This document shows, in pieces, positions 1 through 4,562 of a stretch of 8,629 nucleotides of DNA. The stretch lies in the UHGV virus genome UHGV-1435958, one strand, 5' to 3'. The position numbers and the translations under genes are program-made. Below the pieces are notes generated by a model that saw nothing but the letters and a program-made list of their open reading frames with translations, did not search any database and was not told where the DNA came from. Within the stretch, counting starts at the first letter, position 1. Each line of letters opens with the position of its first letter. Origin of the DNA: a virus.

Positions 1-85
1 GAGGCGAGCACCAAGCTCAGCTTTCATCTCATTAATTGCTGACTTTGTTTCTTTTTCCAGAAGCAACTTACGTAACCTGTCTTGC

Positions 86-202
86 TCATCCTTTTATAAC
101 CTTTTGTTCTCTATCGCTTTTTCTCGATTTCATTTCTGACGATATGATAGTGTAAATCGATACTACAAGCGCAGCTAAAGCGATGGCATCACTTGTTGTC
201 AT
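86..202 (-). CDS. Small hydrophobic peptide (38 aa), hypothetical
   Basis: Not in the ORF track; found by manual translation: MTTSDAIALAALVVSIYTIISSEMKSRKSDREQKVIKG. Its ATG overlaps the TAA stop of the upstream zinc-ribbon ORF (TAATG on the minus strand at 204-200). AAGGA lies 8 nt upstream. Hydrophobic N-terminal stretch followed by a basic tail. Confidence 0.35.
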   Translation of the reverse strand: MTTSDAIALAALVVSIYTIISSEMKSRKSDREQKVIKG

Positions 203-477
203 TATTTGATCCTTATATTCTTACTTCCCTTAAATGCCTTTTTGAGCATGTCGTTAAACTGTTTTTGAATGTCTTTTGTTAACTCTTCTTTTATTTCATC
301 TACATGAGCGTCAATACTCACCCCGTTTTCTTGGATTAACTCATCATTAGTAAATTCTTTCCCGCAGCCTACACATCTAACGACTTCAGACTCTTCCTCG
401 TGTTCCATCTCTGTATTTCCGCACACAGGACATAGCAGGGTAATGTTTCTATTGTATTTCTCAGGATTCAGTTTCAT
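202..477 (-). CDS. Zinc-ribbon protein (91 aa), hypothetical
   Basis: ORF track. Two CxxC pairs (CPVCG ... CVGCG) 15 residues apart, followed by an acidic/helical C-terminus. Good RBS (AGAGGAAA) just upstream of the ATG on the minus strand. Confidence 0.5.
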   Translation of the reverse strand: MKLNPEKYNRNITLLCPVCGNTEMEHEEESEVVRCVGCGKEFTNDELIQENGVSIDAHVDEIKEELTKDIQKQFNDMLKKAFKGSKNIRIK

Positions 478-505
478 ATGTTTCCTCTCTTCTACGTTTT
501 ATTGA

Positions 506-928
506 TTACCAGTAATATGAATTTCTTCTGTGCCACCAATAAAGCAGGCCATATCCGACAATAAGAATCCCGAAGAACATCAGAGACATTCCCCAGCCAG
601 TTCCATACCACGAAACCATATCATCGAAAACCAGCCCACCCGTTTCACGAACTCCGGCAGCTTCCTTAAGAATTGGCTTGAATATCGGAATCAGAAGGGC
701 GATCGCCAGTGGAGCACCCCAGCGAACAAGACCAGTTTCCATTTTGATACCGAAAAAGATCCCCGCACCGACAACAAGCAGCCAGACTATCAGGCCAGGC
801 GCAGTTTCCAGTGCTGTTTGCCATTCAACATCGAAAGTTTTCATTAGCCAGGCTACAACAGCCAGGCAGAAAGCAAATACGCCTACAACAACCAGTTCAA
901 CGCCGCTTGTTCCGTTATTTCTACTCAT
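506..928 (-). CDS. Polytopic inner-membrane protein (140 aa, about 4 predicted TM segments), hypothetical
   Basis: ORF track. Four hydrophobic stretches of 13-20 residues (e.g. VELVVVGVFAFCLAVVAWLM, GMSLMFFGILIVGYGLLYWW). AAAGGA RBS a few nt upstream of the ATG. The overlapping + strand ORFs have no RBS and low-complexity composition. Confidence 0.55.
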   Translation of the reverse strand: MSRNNGTSGVELVVVGVFAFCLAVVAWLMKTFDVEWQTALETAPGLIVWLLVVGAGIFFGIKMETGLVRWGAPLAIALLIPIFKPILKEAAGVRETGGLVFDDMVSWYGTGWGMSLMFFGILIVGYGLLYWWHRRNSYYW

Positions 929-963
929 CCTTTTGATCCTTTGTTACTGTTCAAAATTCGCAC

Positions 964-999
964 AATAAAAAACGTGCAGTGTTGGTAATACTGCACGTT
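964..999 (-). terminator. Rho-independent terminator downstream of the minus-strand regulator gene
   Basis: Perfect 10-bp inverted repeat AACGTGCAGT (971-980) / ACTGCACGTT (990-999) with a 9-nt loop. On the minus strand it is followed by TTTTATT (complement of 964-970). A second small hairpin GTACCA-ttcg-TGGTAC lies at 1001-1016, directly after the stop codon. Confidence 0.55.
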
Positions 1000-1016
1000 T
1001 GTACCATTCGTGGTAC

Positions 1017-1199
1017 TTAATCCTTTTGTTTGGCAGACATGAGATCTTCTGCTGCATCTTTAGAGTAGTTATCAATCAGATAACCTAAAATCTCTGTCCA
1101 TGTAATTGTTTTTCCTAGTTTTACACTGGCATTTATAGCCAGTCGTTCTAGTTTCATTTTTCTTTCTTCCGTCACGTTATAAGTCGTGCGCTTTGCCAT
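1017..1199 (-). CDS. Small DNA-binding regulator, ribbon-helix-helix-like (60 aa); candidate prophage repressor
   Basis: ORF track. Basic N-terminus with a short alternating stretch (KRTTYNVTEE) followed by two predicted helices, a pattern typical of RHH (Arc/CopG-type) proteins. Transcribed divergently from gII. Own terminator downstream. Confidence 0.45.
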   Translation of the reverse strand: MAKRTTYNVTEERKMKLERLAINASVKLGKTITWTEILGYLIDNYSKDAAEDLMSAKQKD

Positions 1200-1246
1200 T
1201 TTTTACGCTCGTTCAATGCAATATTTGAAGTGAGTATACATGCTCA

Positions 1247-1325
1247 TGAACTCATATCATCCAATCCTCTTGAACTCACTAGCTCACTGGTGTAATGTTA
1301 AAACACTAATGAACTACTGAACTCA
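1247..1325. promoter_or_regulatory. Divergent promoter/operator region with repeated TGAACTCA octamers
   Basis: TGAACTCA at 1247-1254, 1271-1278 and 1318-1325, plus TGAACTAC at 1310-1317. Candidate sigma70 promoter for gII: TTGAAC (1270-1275), 17-nt spacer, TAATGT (1293-1298). TATACT-like -10 on the minus strand (complement of 1233-1238) upstream of the regulator gene. Confidence 0.4.
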
Positions 1326-2953: not shown

Positions 2954-3196
2954 ATGAAAATTCTGTCTACTGTTAAATATAAAATTGCTCTGGCTTCAAC
3001 TGCGCTTTTTATTTCTGCAAGTTCTTTTGCGGCTGAAGGCGCTACAGGTGGTACTGATTATGCAGGTCAGGCAATGGATGCTTTGTTGACTCAGGCAAAT
3101 GATCTCATTGGTAAAGTATGGCCTGTTGTTGTTGCTGTGGTTGGCGCTGGGCTTGCCATTCGTATTTTCAAAAAATTCTCTTCAAAAGCGGTTTGA
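2954..3196 (+). CDS. gVIII: Major coat protein precursor pVIII (80 aa; predicted 26-aa signal peptide, 54-aa mature protein)
   Basis: GGAG RBS 8 nt upstream. Signal peptide ending SSFA followed by AEG, amphipathic N-terminus, hydrophobic core, basic tail [12 protein letters not shown]; closest to the IKe/Ff pVIII pattern. Confidence 0.85.
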
Positions 3197-3205
3197 ATTT
3201 CACTC

Positions 3206-3230
3206 AGGGGCACTCGTTGCCCCTTTATTA
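3206..3230 (+). terminator. Rho-independent terminator after gVIII
   Basis: AGGGGCA (3206-3212), loop ctcgt, TGCCCCT (3218-3224), followed by TTATTA. Ff phages have a strong terminator at the same position. Confidence 0.6.
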
Positions 3231-3242
3231 AAGCGGGTTACT

Positions 3243-4562
3243 ATGAGAAGGAAAATATTAATTCTTTCCGCTGTCCTCATTTCTCCTTTTTCACATGCTG
3301 AGTCATGGGAAAGCATTACTAAATCCACTTATCAAAGTTCTGCCTATGCTGAAAGTAAGCAAATAACCAATCAGGATGGCTCTAAGATAACGGTTTACTA
3401 TATTGATGCTGCTATGCAGGCCTCCGCTTGTCAGGGTGCTAAATCCAGTGCTCAGAGTGTATTTACTCGGATTAAACCAACTTATGAGGGTATCTGGCCT
3501 GATTCTGAATTCCGTCTTGTTTTTACTGGCGATTGTACTTACAGCGATTCACCAGGGCAGAAGGATAAATATTGGTCTTTAACGGCTTATATTGTTGGTA
3601 ATATTCAGCGTTCTGTTCCTGATGAAAAACCTACTGACCCGACACCAGAAGAAATTTGTGAAGCGAAGCCGCCAGAAGAAGGTGTATTTAATAATGTTGA
3701 TTCATATGATGGTGGTCGCTATATCTACTATAACGGCTGTGAATATGAGGCTACTGGTGTCATTGTTTGTCAGGGTGATGGTACTGTTTGCGCTGCAACA
3801 TGGAAGCCTACAGGTGCTGTAGCTGACCCCTCTGATAAACCCTCAACCCCCCAAAATGGTGGTGGTGAGTCTGGCGGTGGTGAGTCCGGCGGTGGTGAGT
3901 CCGGCGGTGGTGAGTCCGGTGGTGGTGAGTCCGGTGGTGGTGAGTCCGGTGGTGGTGAGTCTGGCGGTGGTGAGTCCGGTGGCGGTAGTTCTGGCGGTAG
4001 TTCTGGCGGTAGTTCTGGCGGTGGCTCTAGTGGTTCCAGTCTTTCTAAAGGTGATATTCAGTCTGCGATCGAAGGTGCTTCACCCAAAATAGCCAGCGAT
4101 ATTCATGATAAATTAACGGAGAAAGACACTTCATCAGATGATAAAAAAAATGCCGATGAACAAACCAGGAATAATATAAATCGTCTTGACGATTCCATTA
4201 ACAATCTTACGCGGGGGGCTGGCCGTTTTGCTGACCCTTCAGGTGGTGATTCTCGTTATGGAAAGGGCGACTCTGAATTAGATGGCGCTTCTACTTTAGC
4301 TGATTCTGAATTGGGAATTGAAAAGGATTCTCACGGTGCTTTATGGGAAGCATTTTTAAATAAAGGTGCTATGCTGCCTAATTTACCCAATGGTAACGGC
4401 TGCTCTGATTTTATTATTTTTCCCGGAGAGGTTTATCAGATTGATATTGGTTGCGATAAATTACTGACTATTAAAGATGTTCTTTCATGGGTTTTTTATT
4501 GCCTTACGTTCTGGTATGTCTTTACTTCTTTAACTTCATTGCTTCGCAAAGGGGGTGAGTGA
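3243..4562 (+). CDS. gIII: Minor coat/adsorption protein pIII (439 aa)
   Basis: Track ORF 3099..4562 starts inside gVIII; the real start is taken as the ATG at 3243, after the terminator, giving signal peptide [20 protein letters not shown]-terminal membrane anchor resembles the M13 pIII C-terminal domain ([28 protein letters not shown] here). Long Gly-rich linker. Confidence 0.85.
3858..4040 (+). repeat. Tandem 15-nt repeats encoding (GGGES)x8 followed by GGSS-type repeats (Gly/Ser linker of pIII)
   Basis: Eight consecutive near-identical 15-nt units ggtggtgagtcYggY from 3858 to 3977, then ggcggtagttct-type units to about 4040. In frame with gIII. Confidence 0.9.

What the first reader, a model, noticed from the sequence alone, without database searches (positions are those of the whole stretch)
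86..928. Minus-strand accessory cassette: polytopic membrane protein, zinc-ribbon protein and a translationally coupled hydrophobic peptide
Three co-oriented small genes with good RBSs sit on the strand opposite the phage core, a place where Ff phages have only the intergenic origin region. None resembles a known inovirus structural or replication protein. A membrane protein plus a zinc ribbon plus a small hydrophobic peptide is the kind of compact module that could mediate superinfection exclusion, a toxin/immunity function or a host-directed function. The stop/start overlap between the zinc-ribbon gene and the 38-aa peptide implies obligate co-expression. A further minus-strand ORF appears to start at 27..25 and run off the 5' end. 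This is the region I consider most likely to hold undescribed biology.
Basis: inference. Interest (0 to 1): 0.7.

Follow-up and report, generated by a model that had tools for sequence, protein, structure and literature searches.

The report
Filamentous prophage cargo genes, one broken
The three small reverse-strand ORFs are the already-noted but uncharacterised accessory arm of a filamentous E. coli prophage: a conserved four-helix membrane protein plus a mobile two-gene module (zinc-ribbon protein and a 159-aa membrane-anchored protein), and the "38-aa peptide" is only the stump of that second gene, cut short here by a one-base insertion.

Summary
The window is a dif-integrated UPphi-type inovirus prophage of E. 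coli, and 86-928 is its attL-proximal accessory arm. This arm probably corresponds to ORFs h3-h5 of Shapiro & Putonti 2020, described there as of unknown function.

- **The "38-aa peptide" is not a gene.** It is codons 1-37 of a 159-aa gene, truncated by a +1 insertion at 92-95. That insertion is absent from every relative examined. The "further ORF at 27..25" is Met59 of the same gene.
- **The cassette is two units.** The 140-aa four-TM protein is a phage backbone gene. Sequence identity with roughly 38 sibling E. coli prophages stops exactly at its stop codon (~505), beyond which they carry other cargo.
- **The zinc-ribbon and 159-aa genes form an autonomous pair.** The zinc-ribbon protein belongs to the ECs_2282 family. 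The pair is translationally coupled, found together in 49 of 50 loci across Proteobacteria, and mostly sits on ICEs, conjugative plasmids and defence-rich islands.
- **All three frames are under purifying selection** (dN/dS 0.0-0.25).
- **No characterised family, defence model or solved structure matches.**

The most likely function is a mobile-element conflict module (phage exclusion or abortive infection), with a toxin-antitoxin-like addiction module as the main rival. Both are inferences from context alone. Interest is moderate.

The parts
506..928 (-). 140-aa polytopic inner-membrane protein; probably h3 of UPphi phages. It is a backbone gene of the prophage's regulatory arm, not part of the swappable cargo.
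   Evidence: ORF. Matches phrog_4174 full length, function unknown. No Pfam or NCBIfam hit. Four hydrophobic helices by hydropathy and AF2, although the model is poor at pLDDT 63. dN/dS 0.04-0.25. Only 38 cluster representatives among 1.84 billion proteins. Present in E. coli prophages whose identity to the window stops at ~505, in Y. enterocolitica prophages and in a 9.5-kb episomal CUS/Ypf-like phage.
202..477 (-). 91-aa cytoplasmic zinc-ribbon protein (CxxC at C16/C19, CxxC at C35/C38), followed by an acidic helix and a near-invariant C-terminal tail AFKGSKNIRIK. First gene of the mobile pair.
   Evidence: NCBIfam NF047912 ECs_2282_CxxC scores 65.2 bits against a cut-off of 37. The four Cys residues and K86-N87-I88 are invariant in 36 homologues. 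No hydrophobic segment. PDB profile search finds only generic eS27-type ribbons. Lies directly upstream of the 159-aa homologue in 49 of 50 loci.
1..202 (-). First 67 codons of the 159-aa gene, the second gene of the pair. The start ATG is at 202-200 and the gene runs off the left edge of the window. It is disrupted here by a +1 insertion after codon 37.
92..95 (.). Frameshift site: TTTT on the + strand (AAAA in the coding sense) where all relatives have three bases.
   Evidence: No exact match to the 43-mer across this site in 5,426 E. coli genomes.
86..202 (-). Apparent 38-aa ORF. It is codons 1-37 of the 159-aa gene plus an out-of-frame Gly and stop, not an independent gene.
478..505 (-). 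28-nt spacer carrying the zinc-ribbon gene's RBS (GAGAGGAAA). Its upstream end, at ~505-513, is the recombination boundary between the phage backbone and the variable cargo slot.
   Evidence: About 38 E. coli genomes match the window only from 499-513 rightwards and carry different genes to the left of that point.
963..1016 (-). Two hairpins followed by a U-run: an intrinsic-terminator-like element between the 60-aa gene and the 140-aa gene.
   Evidence: RNA fold gives -21.6 kcal/mol, z = -4.0, with an 11-bp stem followed by UUUUUUAUU. The simple scan missed it because the loop is 9 nt.
1017..1199 (-). 60-aa gene at the head of the minus-strand arm, a repressor candidate with a ribbon-helix-helix-like sequence. 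The CUS/Ypf-like lineage has a 148-aa HTH regulator in its place.
   Evidence: ORF. phrog_2503, function unknown. The replacement is seen in L002 and L069. The repressor role is inferred from position only.
8039..8066 (+). Exact 28-bp E. coli dif site, the right prophage junction (attR). It places the finding at the opposite, attL-proximal end of the prophage.
   Evidence: 0 mismatches, none expected by chance. The hybrid attL lies ~70 nt beyond the stop of the 159-aa gene in UM146, outside the window.

Best explanation
**Shown**
The region is the attL-proximal accessory arm of a dif-integrated UPphi-type (IKe/I2-2-like) filamentous prophage of E. coli. It holds two separable units.

1. A backbone gene for a 140-aa four-helix inner-membrane protein. 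It sits just downstream of the phage's small regulator gene and a terminator-like hairpin.
2. A variable cargo slot between that gene and attL. Here it holds a two-gene operon:
   - a 91-aa ECs_2282-family zinc-ribbon protein;
   - overlapping it by one base, a 159-aa protein. This protein has one N-terminal hydrophobic helix, a conserved leucine-rich helix and an Ig-like beta-sandwich.

In this window the 159-aa gene is broken after codon 37 by a one-base insertion. That insertion created the illusory 38-aa 'peptide'.

The pair is an autonomous mobile module found across Gamma-, Beta- and Alphaproteobacteria. It occurs on ICEs, conjugative plasmids and genomic islands.

**Inferred**
- The 159-aa protein is anchored in the inner membrane with its helix and beta-sandwich in the cytoplasm.
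- There it binds the zinc-ribbon protein, possibly through the latter's invariant C-terminal tail.
- The pair acts as a mobile-element conflict system, giving phage or foreign-DNA exclusion of the abortive-infection type. The soluble zinc-ribbon protein would sense or restrain, and the membrane protein would oligomerise through its zipper-like helix and disturb the membrane when triggered.
- The 140-aa protein is most likely a phage-lifestyle membrane factor, for example immunity against superinfection by related filamentous phages. It is independent of the pair.
- In this particular prophage copy the pair is probably inactive, unless the extra base is a sequencing error.
For: **Anatomy**
- ORFs.
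- Frameshift.
- Prophage identity and dif. Literature match to UPphi901 in PMC7307601: GGGES repeats in g3p, three reverse ORFs next to dif, h3 in 221/229 prophages against h4/h5 in 56-57/229. ECONIH2, named in the paper as carrying them, matches window 1-1300 at 95.8%.

**Two units**
- The identity break falls at ~505, with alternative cargo beyond it: 94+262 aa, 363 aa, or 54+105+257 aa.
- The 140-aa gene occurs without the pair.
- The pair occurs without inovirus genes in about 40 loci.

**Obligate pairing**
- The zinc-ribbon gene is directly upstream in 49 of 50 loci. Of 49 junctions, 34 overlap by 1 or 4 nt.

**Selection**
- dN/dS is 0.0-0.25 for all three genes.

**Structure**
- AF2 pLDDT 87.6, with a helix at 3-59 and a beta-sandwich.
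- Hydropathy of 1.85 over residues 6-24.
- Invariant L46, L48, K50, E51.
- Invariant KNI tail in the zinc-ribbon protein.

**Conflict-type context**
- Next to a SIR2-STAND NTPase, a type I R-M system and AAA_13.
- Between an SNF2/DUF4391/MTase/Res cluster and traI in a Proteus SXT-like ICE. This is the position of defence hotspot 5 (bioRxiv 10.1101/2020.12.16.423150).
- In ICE cargo beside an AAA_13 ATPase and Hypoth_Ymh, near the integrase.
- Beside a BrxR/WYL regulator.
- Beside a TrlF ATPase and a CAAX protease on a Serratia plasmid.
- On 93 plasmids, 85 of them conjugative.
- Neighbour scan finds integrases, transposases, methylases, AAA_21, SLATT_4 and AGS_C.
- Inovirus hypothetical genes can exclude unrelated phages (PMC6813254).
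Against: - There is no experimental datum for any of the three proteins.
- None matches a PADLOC 2.0 defence model convincingly. The best is the zinc-ribbon region against PDC-S64 at 27 bits.
- The beta-sandwich is a generic fold with no catalytic hint.
- Membrane orientation rests on a weak positive-inside bias and on the assumption that a Cys4 zinc protein is cytoplasmic.
- The defence association is guilt by association in a modest sample and was not scored statistically. Many neighbours are ordinary mobile-element or metabolic genes.
- The alternative cargoes in the same slot also lack any defence annotation, so the slot cannot be called a defence hotspot.
- The pair is almost absent from sequenced viruses: 0 of 50,697 phage records and 5 IMG/VR contigs.
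- The mapping of h3-h5 to these three genes is inferred from text. The figures were not available.
Confidence: 0.55

Rival explanations
1. The zinc-ribbon/159-aa pair is a toxin-antitoxin-like addiction module. It would stabilise the prophage, plasmids and ICEs by post-segregational killing: a small labile zinc-ribbon antitoxin encoded first, then a membrane-acting toxin.
For: - The gene order (small protein first), the translational coupling and the compact size fit type II TA architecture.
- 85 of 93 plasmid hosts are conjugative plasmids.
- Neighbours include ParDE and TacAT modules.
- The zinc-ribbon protein has a faint resemblance to the MqsA zinc-finger antitoxin: TIGR03830, E = 0.001.
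- Inactivating lesions hit the downstream gene only, which would be the toxin. These are the frameshift in the window and the E32* nonsense allele in L057.
- Inoviruses often carry TA pairs (PMC6813254).
Against: - No TA family model reaches threshold. MqsA scores 18.9 bits against a cut-off of 61.8.
- The 159-aa protein has no known toxin fold.
- The zinc-ribbon protein has no recognisable DNA-binding domain for autoregulation.
- Two lesions are too few to show counter-selection.
- TA and abortive-infection defence are not mutually exclusive, so this rival overlaps the best explanation.
Confidence: 0.2
2. The genes serve the filamentous phage's own life cycle or host manipulation rather than inter-element conflict. 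Examples would be control of virion extrusion, membrane-stress management during chronic secretion, receptor or Tol masking, or a host fitness or virulence trait.
For: - The position corresponds to the accessory regions of CTXphi, YpfPhi and CUS-1, which are linked to host phenotypes (PMC4266046, PMC7307601).
- The 140-aa protein is almost confined to inovirus prophages and is kept in 221/229 UPphi prophages (PMC7307601).
- A membrane location suits the envelope-spanning assembly machinery.
Against: - For the pair: about 40 of 50 loci have no inovirus genes at all, and only about a fifth to a quarter of UPphi prophages carry it (PMC7307601). It therefore cannot be needed for the phage cycle.
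- For the 140-aa protein this reading is not excluded, and it is in fact what the best explanation proposes. One homologue sits on a T4SS contig without phage genes.
Confidence: 0.15
3. One reading: one three-gene cassette whose last product is a translationally coupled 38-aa hydrophobic peptide, obligately co-expressed with the zinc-ribbon protein.
For: The ORF is present in the window with an RBS and a 1-nt overlap.
Against: - All relatives read through to 159 aa.
- The allele is unique among 5,426 genomes.
- Sequence downstream of the stop continues in the conserved frame of the same protein.
- The 140-aa gene and the pair assort independently.
Confidence: 0.03

Closest known systems
ORFs h3, h4 and h5 of UPphi901 and related 'UPphi viruses' (Shapiro & Putonti 2020, Virus Evol, PMC7307601)
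   Same: The phage type is the same: an IKe/I2-2-like core, gII/gV like YpfPhi, GGGES repeats in g3p, and dif integration, often in tandem. It also has three reverse-oriented ORFs next to dif. One is near-universal (221/229) and two are present in about a quarter (56-57/229), with other ORFs in their place elsewhere. This matches my independent counts.
   Different: The paper treats them as three novel ORFs without homologues and offers no analysis. Three points are new here: h4/h5 form a coupled pair spread far beyond inoviruses, h4 is an ECs_2282-family zinc ribbon, and this window's h5 is frameshifted. The one-to-one mapping is inferred from the text and from strain ECONIH2, not from the figure.
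attL-adjacent accessory ORFs of CUS-1 (orf1, orf1a) and YpfPhi (YPO2271, YPO2272) (Gonzalez 2002; Derbise & Carniel 2014, PMC4266046)
   Same: The position is the same: between attL and the repressor, on the strand opposite the core genes. The content is variable and the function unknown. A CUS/Ypf-like prophage in ST131 carries the very same arm at 95% DNA identity.
   Different: YPO2271/2272 are described as unrelated to the CUS-1 ORFs. Whether orf1/orf1a equal the genes here could not be checked, because the paper is not held.
NCBIfam NF047912, ECs_2282 family putative zinc-binding protein
   Same: The 91-aa protein scores above the curated cut-off and has the four invariant cysteines.
   Different: The family is defined by sequence only. 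No function, partner or structure is attached to it.
Lambda RexA/RexB and similar prophage-borne abortive-infection pairs (established knowledge, not tested here)
   Same: Both are two-gene prophage cargo expressed from the lysogen's regulatory arm, combining a cytoplasmic component with an inner-membrane component. Both are proposed to exclude other phages through the membrane.
   Different: There is no sequence or fold relationship. RexB is polytopic, whereas the 159-aa protein has a single hydrophobic helix plus a beta-sandwich. Activity is unproven here.
Cargo hotspots for defence genes on mobile elements: SXT/R391 ICE hotspot 5 (LeGault et al., bioRxiv 10.1101/2020.12.16.423150). Also P2/P4 prophage hotspots (recalled from memory, not checked).
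   Same: There is a fixed slot at a backbone boundary with interchangeable small gene sets. The pair itself sits in the hotspot-5 position of a Proteus ICE.
   Different: None of the alternative cargoes in the inovirus slot matches a known defence family. The defence character of the slot is therefore conjecture.
Inovirus superinfection-exclusion genes (Roux et al. 2019, PMC6813254; Pf PfsE recalled from memory)
   Same: These are small inovirus accessory proteins of unknown family. Some block unrelated phages when expressed alone.
   Different: They come from a different host and different phage families, with no homology tested or found.
MqsA-type zinc-finger antitoxins (type II TA)
   Same: Both have a small CxxC...CxxC protein encoded first in a coupled two-gene operon.
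   Different: The score is far below the family threshold (18.9 against 61.8 bits). There is no HTH domain, and the partner is not an MqsR-like RNase.

Membership tests
ECs_2282 family zinc-binding protein (NCBIfam NF047912) | Whole-protein score above the curated cut-off of the family HMM | tested here: met
   65.2 bits against a cut-off of 37, E = 3.6e-18, covering profile positions 1-60 of 60. RefSeq gives the identical protein WP_000773941.1 this name.
ECs_2282 family zinc-binding protein (NCBIfam NF047912) | Two CxxC pairs forming a Cys4 zinc ribbon | tested here: met
   C16, C19, C35 and C38 are invariant in 36 homologues. Zinc binding itself was not tested.
UPphi viruses (Lineavirus-like dif-integrating inoviruses, PMC7307601) | Core genes related to IKe/I2-2, with gII/gV related to YpfPhi | tested here: met
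   The only phage-database DNA hits are gene IV of IKe and the Erwinia PEar phages at about 80%. gII and gV are 86% and 93% identical to those of a CUS/Ypf-like prophage, while its other core genes show no match or only weak similarity (gene IV 27%).
UPphi viruses (Lineavirus-like dif-integrating inoviruses, PMC7307601) | Integration at dif, with a dif copy at the prophage end | tested here: met
   Exact 28-bp dif at 8039-8066. Hybrid attL beside hipA in UM146.
UPphi viruses (Lineavirus-like dif-integrating inoviruses, PMC7307601) | Two novel genes h1/h2 between gene IV and dif | tested here: inconclusive
   Two ORFs at 7341-7649 and 7767-8000 occupy that position and match only function-unknown PHROGs. 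Strain ECONIH2, named in the paper, matches the window at 97.9%. The reference sequence of UPphi901 itself was not available for comparison.
Known anti-phage defence systems (PADLOC-DB 2.0.0) | Significant match of the component proteins to a system's HMMs | tested here: not met
   The 140-aa and 159-aa proteins have 0 families. The 91-aa protein gives only zinc-ribbon-level hits inside much larger profiles: PDC-S64 at 27 bits, HEC-08 and Cas12f. Newer model sets could not be searched.
Type II toxin-antitoxin systems | Toxin or antitoxin domain recognised by Pfam or NCBIfam above threshold | tested here: not met
   The MqsA-family model TIGR03830 scores 18.9 bits against 61.8. The 159-aa protein matches no toxin family.
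Type II toxin-antitoxin systems | Toxicity of one partner, neutralised by the other | not testable with these tools
   Requires expression experiments.
Holins / small phage membrane-lysis proteins | Match to a holin family, with lysis-cassette neighbours | tested here: not met
   Only a weak hit of residues 1-63 to phrog_1350 (E = 0.003). There is no endolysin or spanin nearby, and inoviruses do not lyse.
Inovirus structural, assembly or replication proteins | Match to Pfam or PHROG families for gII, gV, coat proteins, gI (Zot) or gIV | tested here: not met
   None of the three proteins matches. All such genes are found on the + strand instead.

The most novel reading that the evidence does not exclude
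The zinc-ribbon protein and the 159-aa membrane-anchored beta-sandwich protein form a previously unrecognised, widespread two-gene anti-phage or anti-mobile-element system. It is carried on conjugative plasmids (including ColV virulence plasmids), on ICEs and in defence islands. The attL-proximal slot of dif-integrating filamentous prophages would then be a cargo hotspot that trades such systems, making inoviruses vehicles of host immunity.
Probability: 0.35. Interest if true: 0.65.

Novelty: new member of a known kind. Interest (0 to 1): 0.42.

Why it matters
Filamentous prophages at dif are common in extraintestinal pathogenic E. coli, Salmonella, Klebsiella and Yersinia. Their accessory ends are where CTXphi carries cholera toxin, yet in UPphi and CUS phages these genes are complete unknowns.

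This analysis changes the question in two ways. First, the arm is a backbone membrane gene plus an exchangeable cargo slot. Second, one cargo is a coupled gene pair shared with about 90 plasmids (mostly conjugative) and with many ICEs across Proteobacteria. The question therefore moves from three orphan phage ORFs to a defined, testable two-gene module of the mobilome.

If the pair proves to exclude phages or plasmids, it would add a new small membrane-linked system to the defence catalogue. It would also give chronic filamentous phages a role in host immunity. If the pair proves to be an addiction module, that would help explain the stable carriage of these prophages.

There is also a practical lesson. 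Small 'coupled peptides' read from a single sequence should be checked against relatives for frameshifts.

Tried and rejected
- **Phage-database searches for the arm.** Megablast of window 1-1300 found nothing. The whole window matched only about 190 nt of gene IV. tblastn of the 159-aa and 91-aa proteins found nothing.
- **Family searches.** Pfam, NCBIfam and PADLOC give no informative family for the 140-aa and 159-aa proteins. PHROGs match, but all are function-unknown.
- **PDB profile searches of all three families.** Nothing beyond generic zinc ribbons.
- **AF2 of the 140-aa protein.** Confidence was too low (pLDDT 63) to justify a fold search.
- **Exhaustive profile search for distant relatives of the 140-aa protein.** Only 38 representatives, none with a Pfam domain.
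- **Alternative cargoes of the slot scanned for defence or Pfam families.** Nothing found.
- **Idea that 113-115-aa database versions of the 159-aa protein mark recurrent frameshifts.** Mostly rejected. They are contig-end fragments or alternative start calls. Only L057 has a true nonsense codon.
- **Idea that the extra base marks programmed frameshifting.** Rejected, because no relative has it.
- **Initial assumption that the window is CUS-1.** Corrected to UPphi-type. The CUS/Ypf-like lineage is L002 and L069.
- **Literature searches for ECs2282 and the RefSeq accessions.** No papers. Gonzalez 2002 is not held.
- **Promoter scan.** No convincing sigma-70 promoter between the terminator and the 140-aa gene, so how the arm is transcribed is unresolved.
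Full report
**What the window is**

The + strand carries a complete inovirus core:
- gII at 1327-2421, matching Phage_CRI and G2P_X_C
- gV
- the major coat gene
- a g3p with GGGES repeats
- gVI
- a Zot-type gI
- the secretin gIV

The only phage-database DNA similarity is about 80% over 190 nt of gene IV of IKe and the Erwinia PEar phages. An exact 28-bp E. coli dif site lies at 8039-8066.

The left 1,300 bases match 163 of 5,426 complete E. coli genomes, nine of them over the full length. In UM146 the element sits between hipA and the fim-like cluster. A hybrid dif (attL) lies about 70 nt beyond the last minus-strand gene.

This matches the 'UPphi viruses' of Shapiro & Putonti (PMC7307601):
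- an IKe/I2-2-like core
- gII/gV like YpfPhi
- variable GGGES repeats
- tandem integration at dif
- two novel genes (h1, h2) before dif
- 'three ORFs in reverse orientation' next to dif

The paper reports h3 in 221 of 229 prophages and h4/h5 in only 56-57, with other ORFs in their place elsewhere. Strain ECONIH2, which the paper cites as carrying the three ORFs, matches window 1-1300 at 95.8%. I therefore equate h3 with the 140-aa gene and h4/h5 with the next two genes. This is an inference from the text, because the figures are not held.

**Checking the observation**

The ORFs at 506..928 (140 aa), 202..477 (91 aa) and 86..202 (38 aa) are present, as are the 1-nt TAATG overlap at 202 and an ATG at 27..25.

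Alignment with UM146 (99%) and with a different prophage in ST131 strain MB1159 (95%) shows a single extra base in the window, TTTT at 92-95 against TTT. Without it, the ORF starting at 202 is a 159-aa protein. RefSeq annotates this protein as WP_000213483.1.

The window's '38-aa peptide' equals its residues 1-37 followed by Gly and a stop. The ATG at 27..25 is its Met59, and the window ends at its codon 67. So the hydrophobic peptide and the 'further ORF' are two pieces of one broken gene.

A 43-mer across the site has no exact match in 5,426 genomes. The single near-hit carries a gap. Five further alleles lack the extra base. The insertion is therefore private to this sequence. It is either a recent inactivating mutation or a homopolymer error, and I cannot tell which.

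**Are the frames real?**

Each protein has a family of constant length:
- 72 hits for the 159-aa protein, mostly exactly 159 aa, from Salmonella to Pantoea, Serratia and Yersinia
- 48 hits for the 140-aa protein
- 97 hits for the 91-aa protein, reaching Proteus, Agarivorans and Vibrio

Pairwise Nei-Gojobori dN/dS against relatives with dS from 0.07 to above 2 is:

| Gene | dN/dS |
|---|---|
| 140-aa | 0.04-0.25 |
| 91-aa | 0.0-0.10 |
| 159-aa | 0.06-0.20 |

**The cassette is two units, not one**

*First line of evidence.* A whole-window search finds 47 E. coli genomes covering at least 80% of it. Only about nine include window 1-505. About 38 start matching at 499-513, which is exactly the stop codon of the 140-aa gene.

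To the left of that point these prophages carry other genes:
- 94-aa plus 262-aa proteins in one
- a 363-aa protein in another
- 54, 105 and 257-aa ORFs in Y. enterocolitica
- a frameshifted copy of the 363-aa gene in a 9.5-kb circular episome of the CUS/Ypf-like lineage

The 140-aa gene is thus backbone. The stretch between it and attL is a variable cargo slot shared by two inovirus lineages.

*Second line of evidence.* The 140-aa family is tiny and nearly confined to these phages. It has 38 representatives among 1.84 billion proteins. It occurs on five plasmid records, three of which are the phage itself, and on one T4SS contig.

*Third line of evidence.* A scan of one genome per species with the 159-aa profile gave 39 loci in Gamma-, Beta- and Alphaproteobacteria and a few other taxa. 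Together with loci fetched by exact-protein look-up, 49 of 50 have a zinc-ribbon gene immediately upstream. Only six have the 140-aa gene or any inovirus gene.

Of the 49 junctions, 34 overlap (27 by one base, 7 by four) and 13 are spaced by 0-7 nt. It joins the zinc-ribbon protein to a 159-aa protein.

**What the proteins look like**

*The 91-aa protein.* It passes the curated threshold of NCBIfam NF047912, the ECs_2282 family (65.2 against 37 bits). It has four invariant cysteines, an acidic helical middle and a nearly invariant C-terminal AFKGSKNIRIK. It has no hydrophobic segment. Against the PDB it resembles only generic eS27/aIF2beta-type ribbons.

*The 159-aa protein.* It has no Pfam or NCBIfam family. 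AlphaFold2 with 38 homologues gives a confident model at pLDDT 87.6. The model shows one continuous helix at 3-59 followed by a seven-stranded beta-sandwich at 63-158.
- Residues 6-24 reach a hydropathy of 1.85.
- L46, L48, K50 and E51 are invariant.
- Foldseek against viral models finds only uncharacterised membrane proteins.
- There is no catalytic signature.

I infer a bitopic inner-membrane protein with the helix and sandwich in the cytoplasm. This rests on the basic residues after the hydrophobic segment and on a Cys4 zinc partner. The orientation was not tested.

*The 140-aa protein.* It has four hydrophobic helices, but the model is poor at pLDDT 63.

**Context of the pair**

Outside inoviruses the pair lies:
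- beside a SIR2-STAND NTPase, a type I R-M system and an AAA_13 protein in a Chromatiales MAG
- between an SNF2/DUF4391/methylase/Res cluster and traI in a Proteus mirabilis SXT-like ICE, the position LeGault et al. define as defence hotspot 5 (bioRxiv 10.1101/2020.12.16.423150)
- in the cargo of an ICE (integrase, ParB_N, DUF932, DUF2958, DUF736) next to an 892-aa AAA_13 ATPase and a Hypoth_Ymh protein, with a near-identical copy in Hydrogenophaga, Variovorax, Stutzerimonas and others
- next to a BrxR/WYL regulator
- among ParDE, TacAT and DUF4238 genes in Klebsiella
- on 93 plasmids, 85 of them conjugative, including pColV-C1 and a Serratia plasmid where it adjoins a TrlF ATPase and a CAAX protease

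A batch scan of 120 immediate neighbours is topped by phage integrases, transposases, resolvases and DNA methylases. It also includes AAA_21, SMC-like ATPases, SLATT_4 and AGS_C.

The pair is nearly absent from viruses: none in 50,697 phage records and five IMG/VR contigs, three of them this same phage. It is therefore a mobilome cargo module that an inovirus has picked up, not a phage invention.

**Most likely mechanism**

*Shown:* a coupled two-gene unit under purifying selection, mobile between element types, and often among conflict genes.

*Inferred:* a conflict system in which the soluble zinc-ribbon protein binds the cytoplasmic part of the membrane-anchored partner. The invariant tail and the sandwich are the obvious candidate surfaces. 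On a trigger, the partner would be released or activated, oligomerise through its zipper-like helix and perturb the membrane, aborting infection or blocking entry. Lambda RexAB is the textbook analogue in logic, though not in sequence.

The chief rival is an addiction (TA-like) module. It is favoured by the antitoxin-first gene order, the plasmid bias, a faint MqsA-type zinc-finger resemblance, and the fact that both inactivating lesions seen hit the downstream gene. The two readings overlap biologically.

For the 140-aa protein, the near-universal presence in UPphi prophages and the position right after the regulator and a terminator-like hairpin suggest a phage-lifestyle membrane function, such as immunity to related filamentous phages. 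This is conjecture.

**Comparison with what is known, and novelty**

The ORFs themselves have been published as unknown (PMC7307601). The equivalent region of CUS-1 and YpfPhi is also known to be variable and unexplained (PMC4266046). Roux et al. showed that some inovirus hypothetical genes exclude other phages and that inoviruses carry many TA pairs (PMC6813254).

No defining feature of any characterised defence, TA, holin or inovirus structural family is met (see the membership table). Only the sequence-defined ECs_2282 family and the UPphi phage group are met.

What is new here:
- correction of the gene model
- separation into a backbone gene and a cargo slot
- recognition of the pair as a widespread autonomous module
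- a structural outline of its second protein

I file it as a new member of a known kind, namely uncharacterised cargo modules of mobile elements and candidate conflict systems, with moderate interest.

**Limits**

- All functional statements rest on context.
- The defence association was not scored statistically.
- The co-fold could not be run.
- PADLOC models date from 2023.
- The promoter of the arm was not found.
- The source strain of the window is unknown, so the status of the frameshift is open.

Noticed in passing
window 7341-7649 and 7767-8000 (+): Two small genes lie between gene IV and dif, probably h1/h2 of UPphi phages. They match only function-unknown PHROGs (phrog_4115, phrog_5435). 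The 77-aa product has two CxxC pairs (CDRC...CQHC), so it is a second small zinc-finger-like protein in the same prophage.
   Followed up: partly
window ~3850-4010 (+), within the g3p gene (annotated in UM146 as the region equivalent to window 3242-4534; the longer listed ORF is 3099-4562): There is a run of eight GGGES repeats followed by GGSS-type repeats in the attachment protein. GC rises to about 0.52 there. The literature reports that the copy number varies between strains (PMC7307601).
   Followed up: no
window 963-1016 (-): Two adjacent hairpins and a U-run lie directly after the 60-aa gene (dG -21.6 kcal/mol, z -4). The 95%-identical segment shared with the CUS/Ypf-like prophage of ST131 extends through this element and ends at ~1018-1027, where the two lineages switch to different regulators (60-aa against a 148-aa HTH).
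   Followed up: partly
L054 2277-3351, L055 2292-3383, L013 8462-9676, L069 across the origin: These are alternative cargoes in the same slot after the 140-aa gene: 94+262 aa, 363 aa (frameshifted in the episome L069), and 54+105+257 aa. None has a Pfam or PADLOC match, so they are a small reservoir of unknown genes.
   Followed up: partly
L003-L005 8517-8900; L062 9511-9882: In the Klebsiella and pColV clade of the pair (about 38-62% identity), a third conserved gene of 123-127 aa follows the 155-159-aa gene. It has no PADLOC match (Klebsiella copy only) and no Pfam hit on record, and it is absent from the inovirus version.
   Followed up: no
L015 (JARKOR010000214.1): A contig labelled as a 'Candidatus Nanosynbacter' MAG carries this E. 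coli-type prophage at 99-100% protein identity. It is almost certainly a mis-binned enterobacterial contig.
   Followed up: no
NZ_CP092647.1 (E. coli EC5502): This record has 16 separate matches to the window's left arm, and a copy with an indel pattern near the frameshift site that differs from all other genomes. It may be an unusually long tandem array or an error-prone assembly.
   Followed up: no
L057 ~1459-1461: An independent nonsense allele (GAA to TAA, E32*) of the 159-aa gene occurs in another E. coli prophage copy. With the window's frameshift, that makes two different lesions in the N-terminal third of this gene.
   Followed up: partly
L023-L031: An identical or near-identical copy of the pair (43% to the window's) occurs with the same ICE backbone in Hydrogenophaga, Variovorax, Stutzerimonas, a Rhizobiaceae MAG and a 'Bacteroidetes' MAG. 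This suggests very recent broad-host-range transfer, or mis-binning in the MAGs.
   Followed up: no
window 8152-8629: Beyond ~8151 the window no longer matches UM146 and most other genomes, but it does match strain MB51 through to 8629. The chromosomal flank to the right of dif therefore differs between strains.
   Followed up: no
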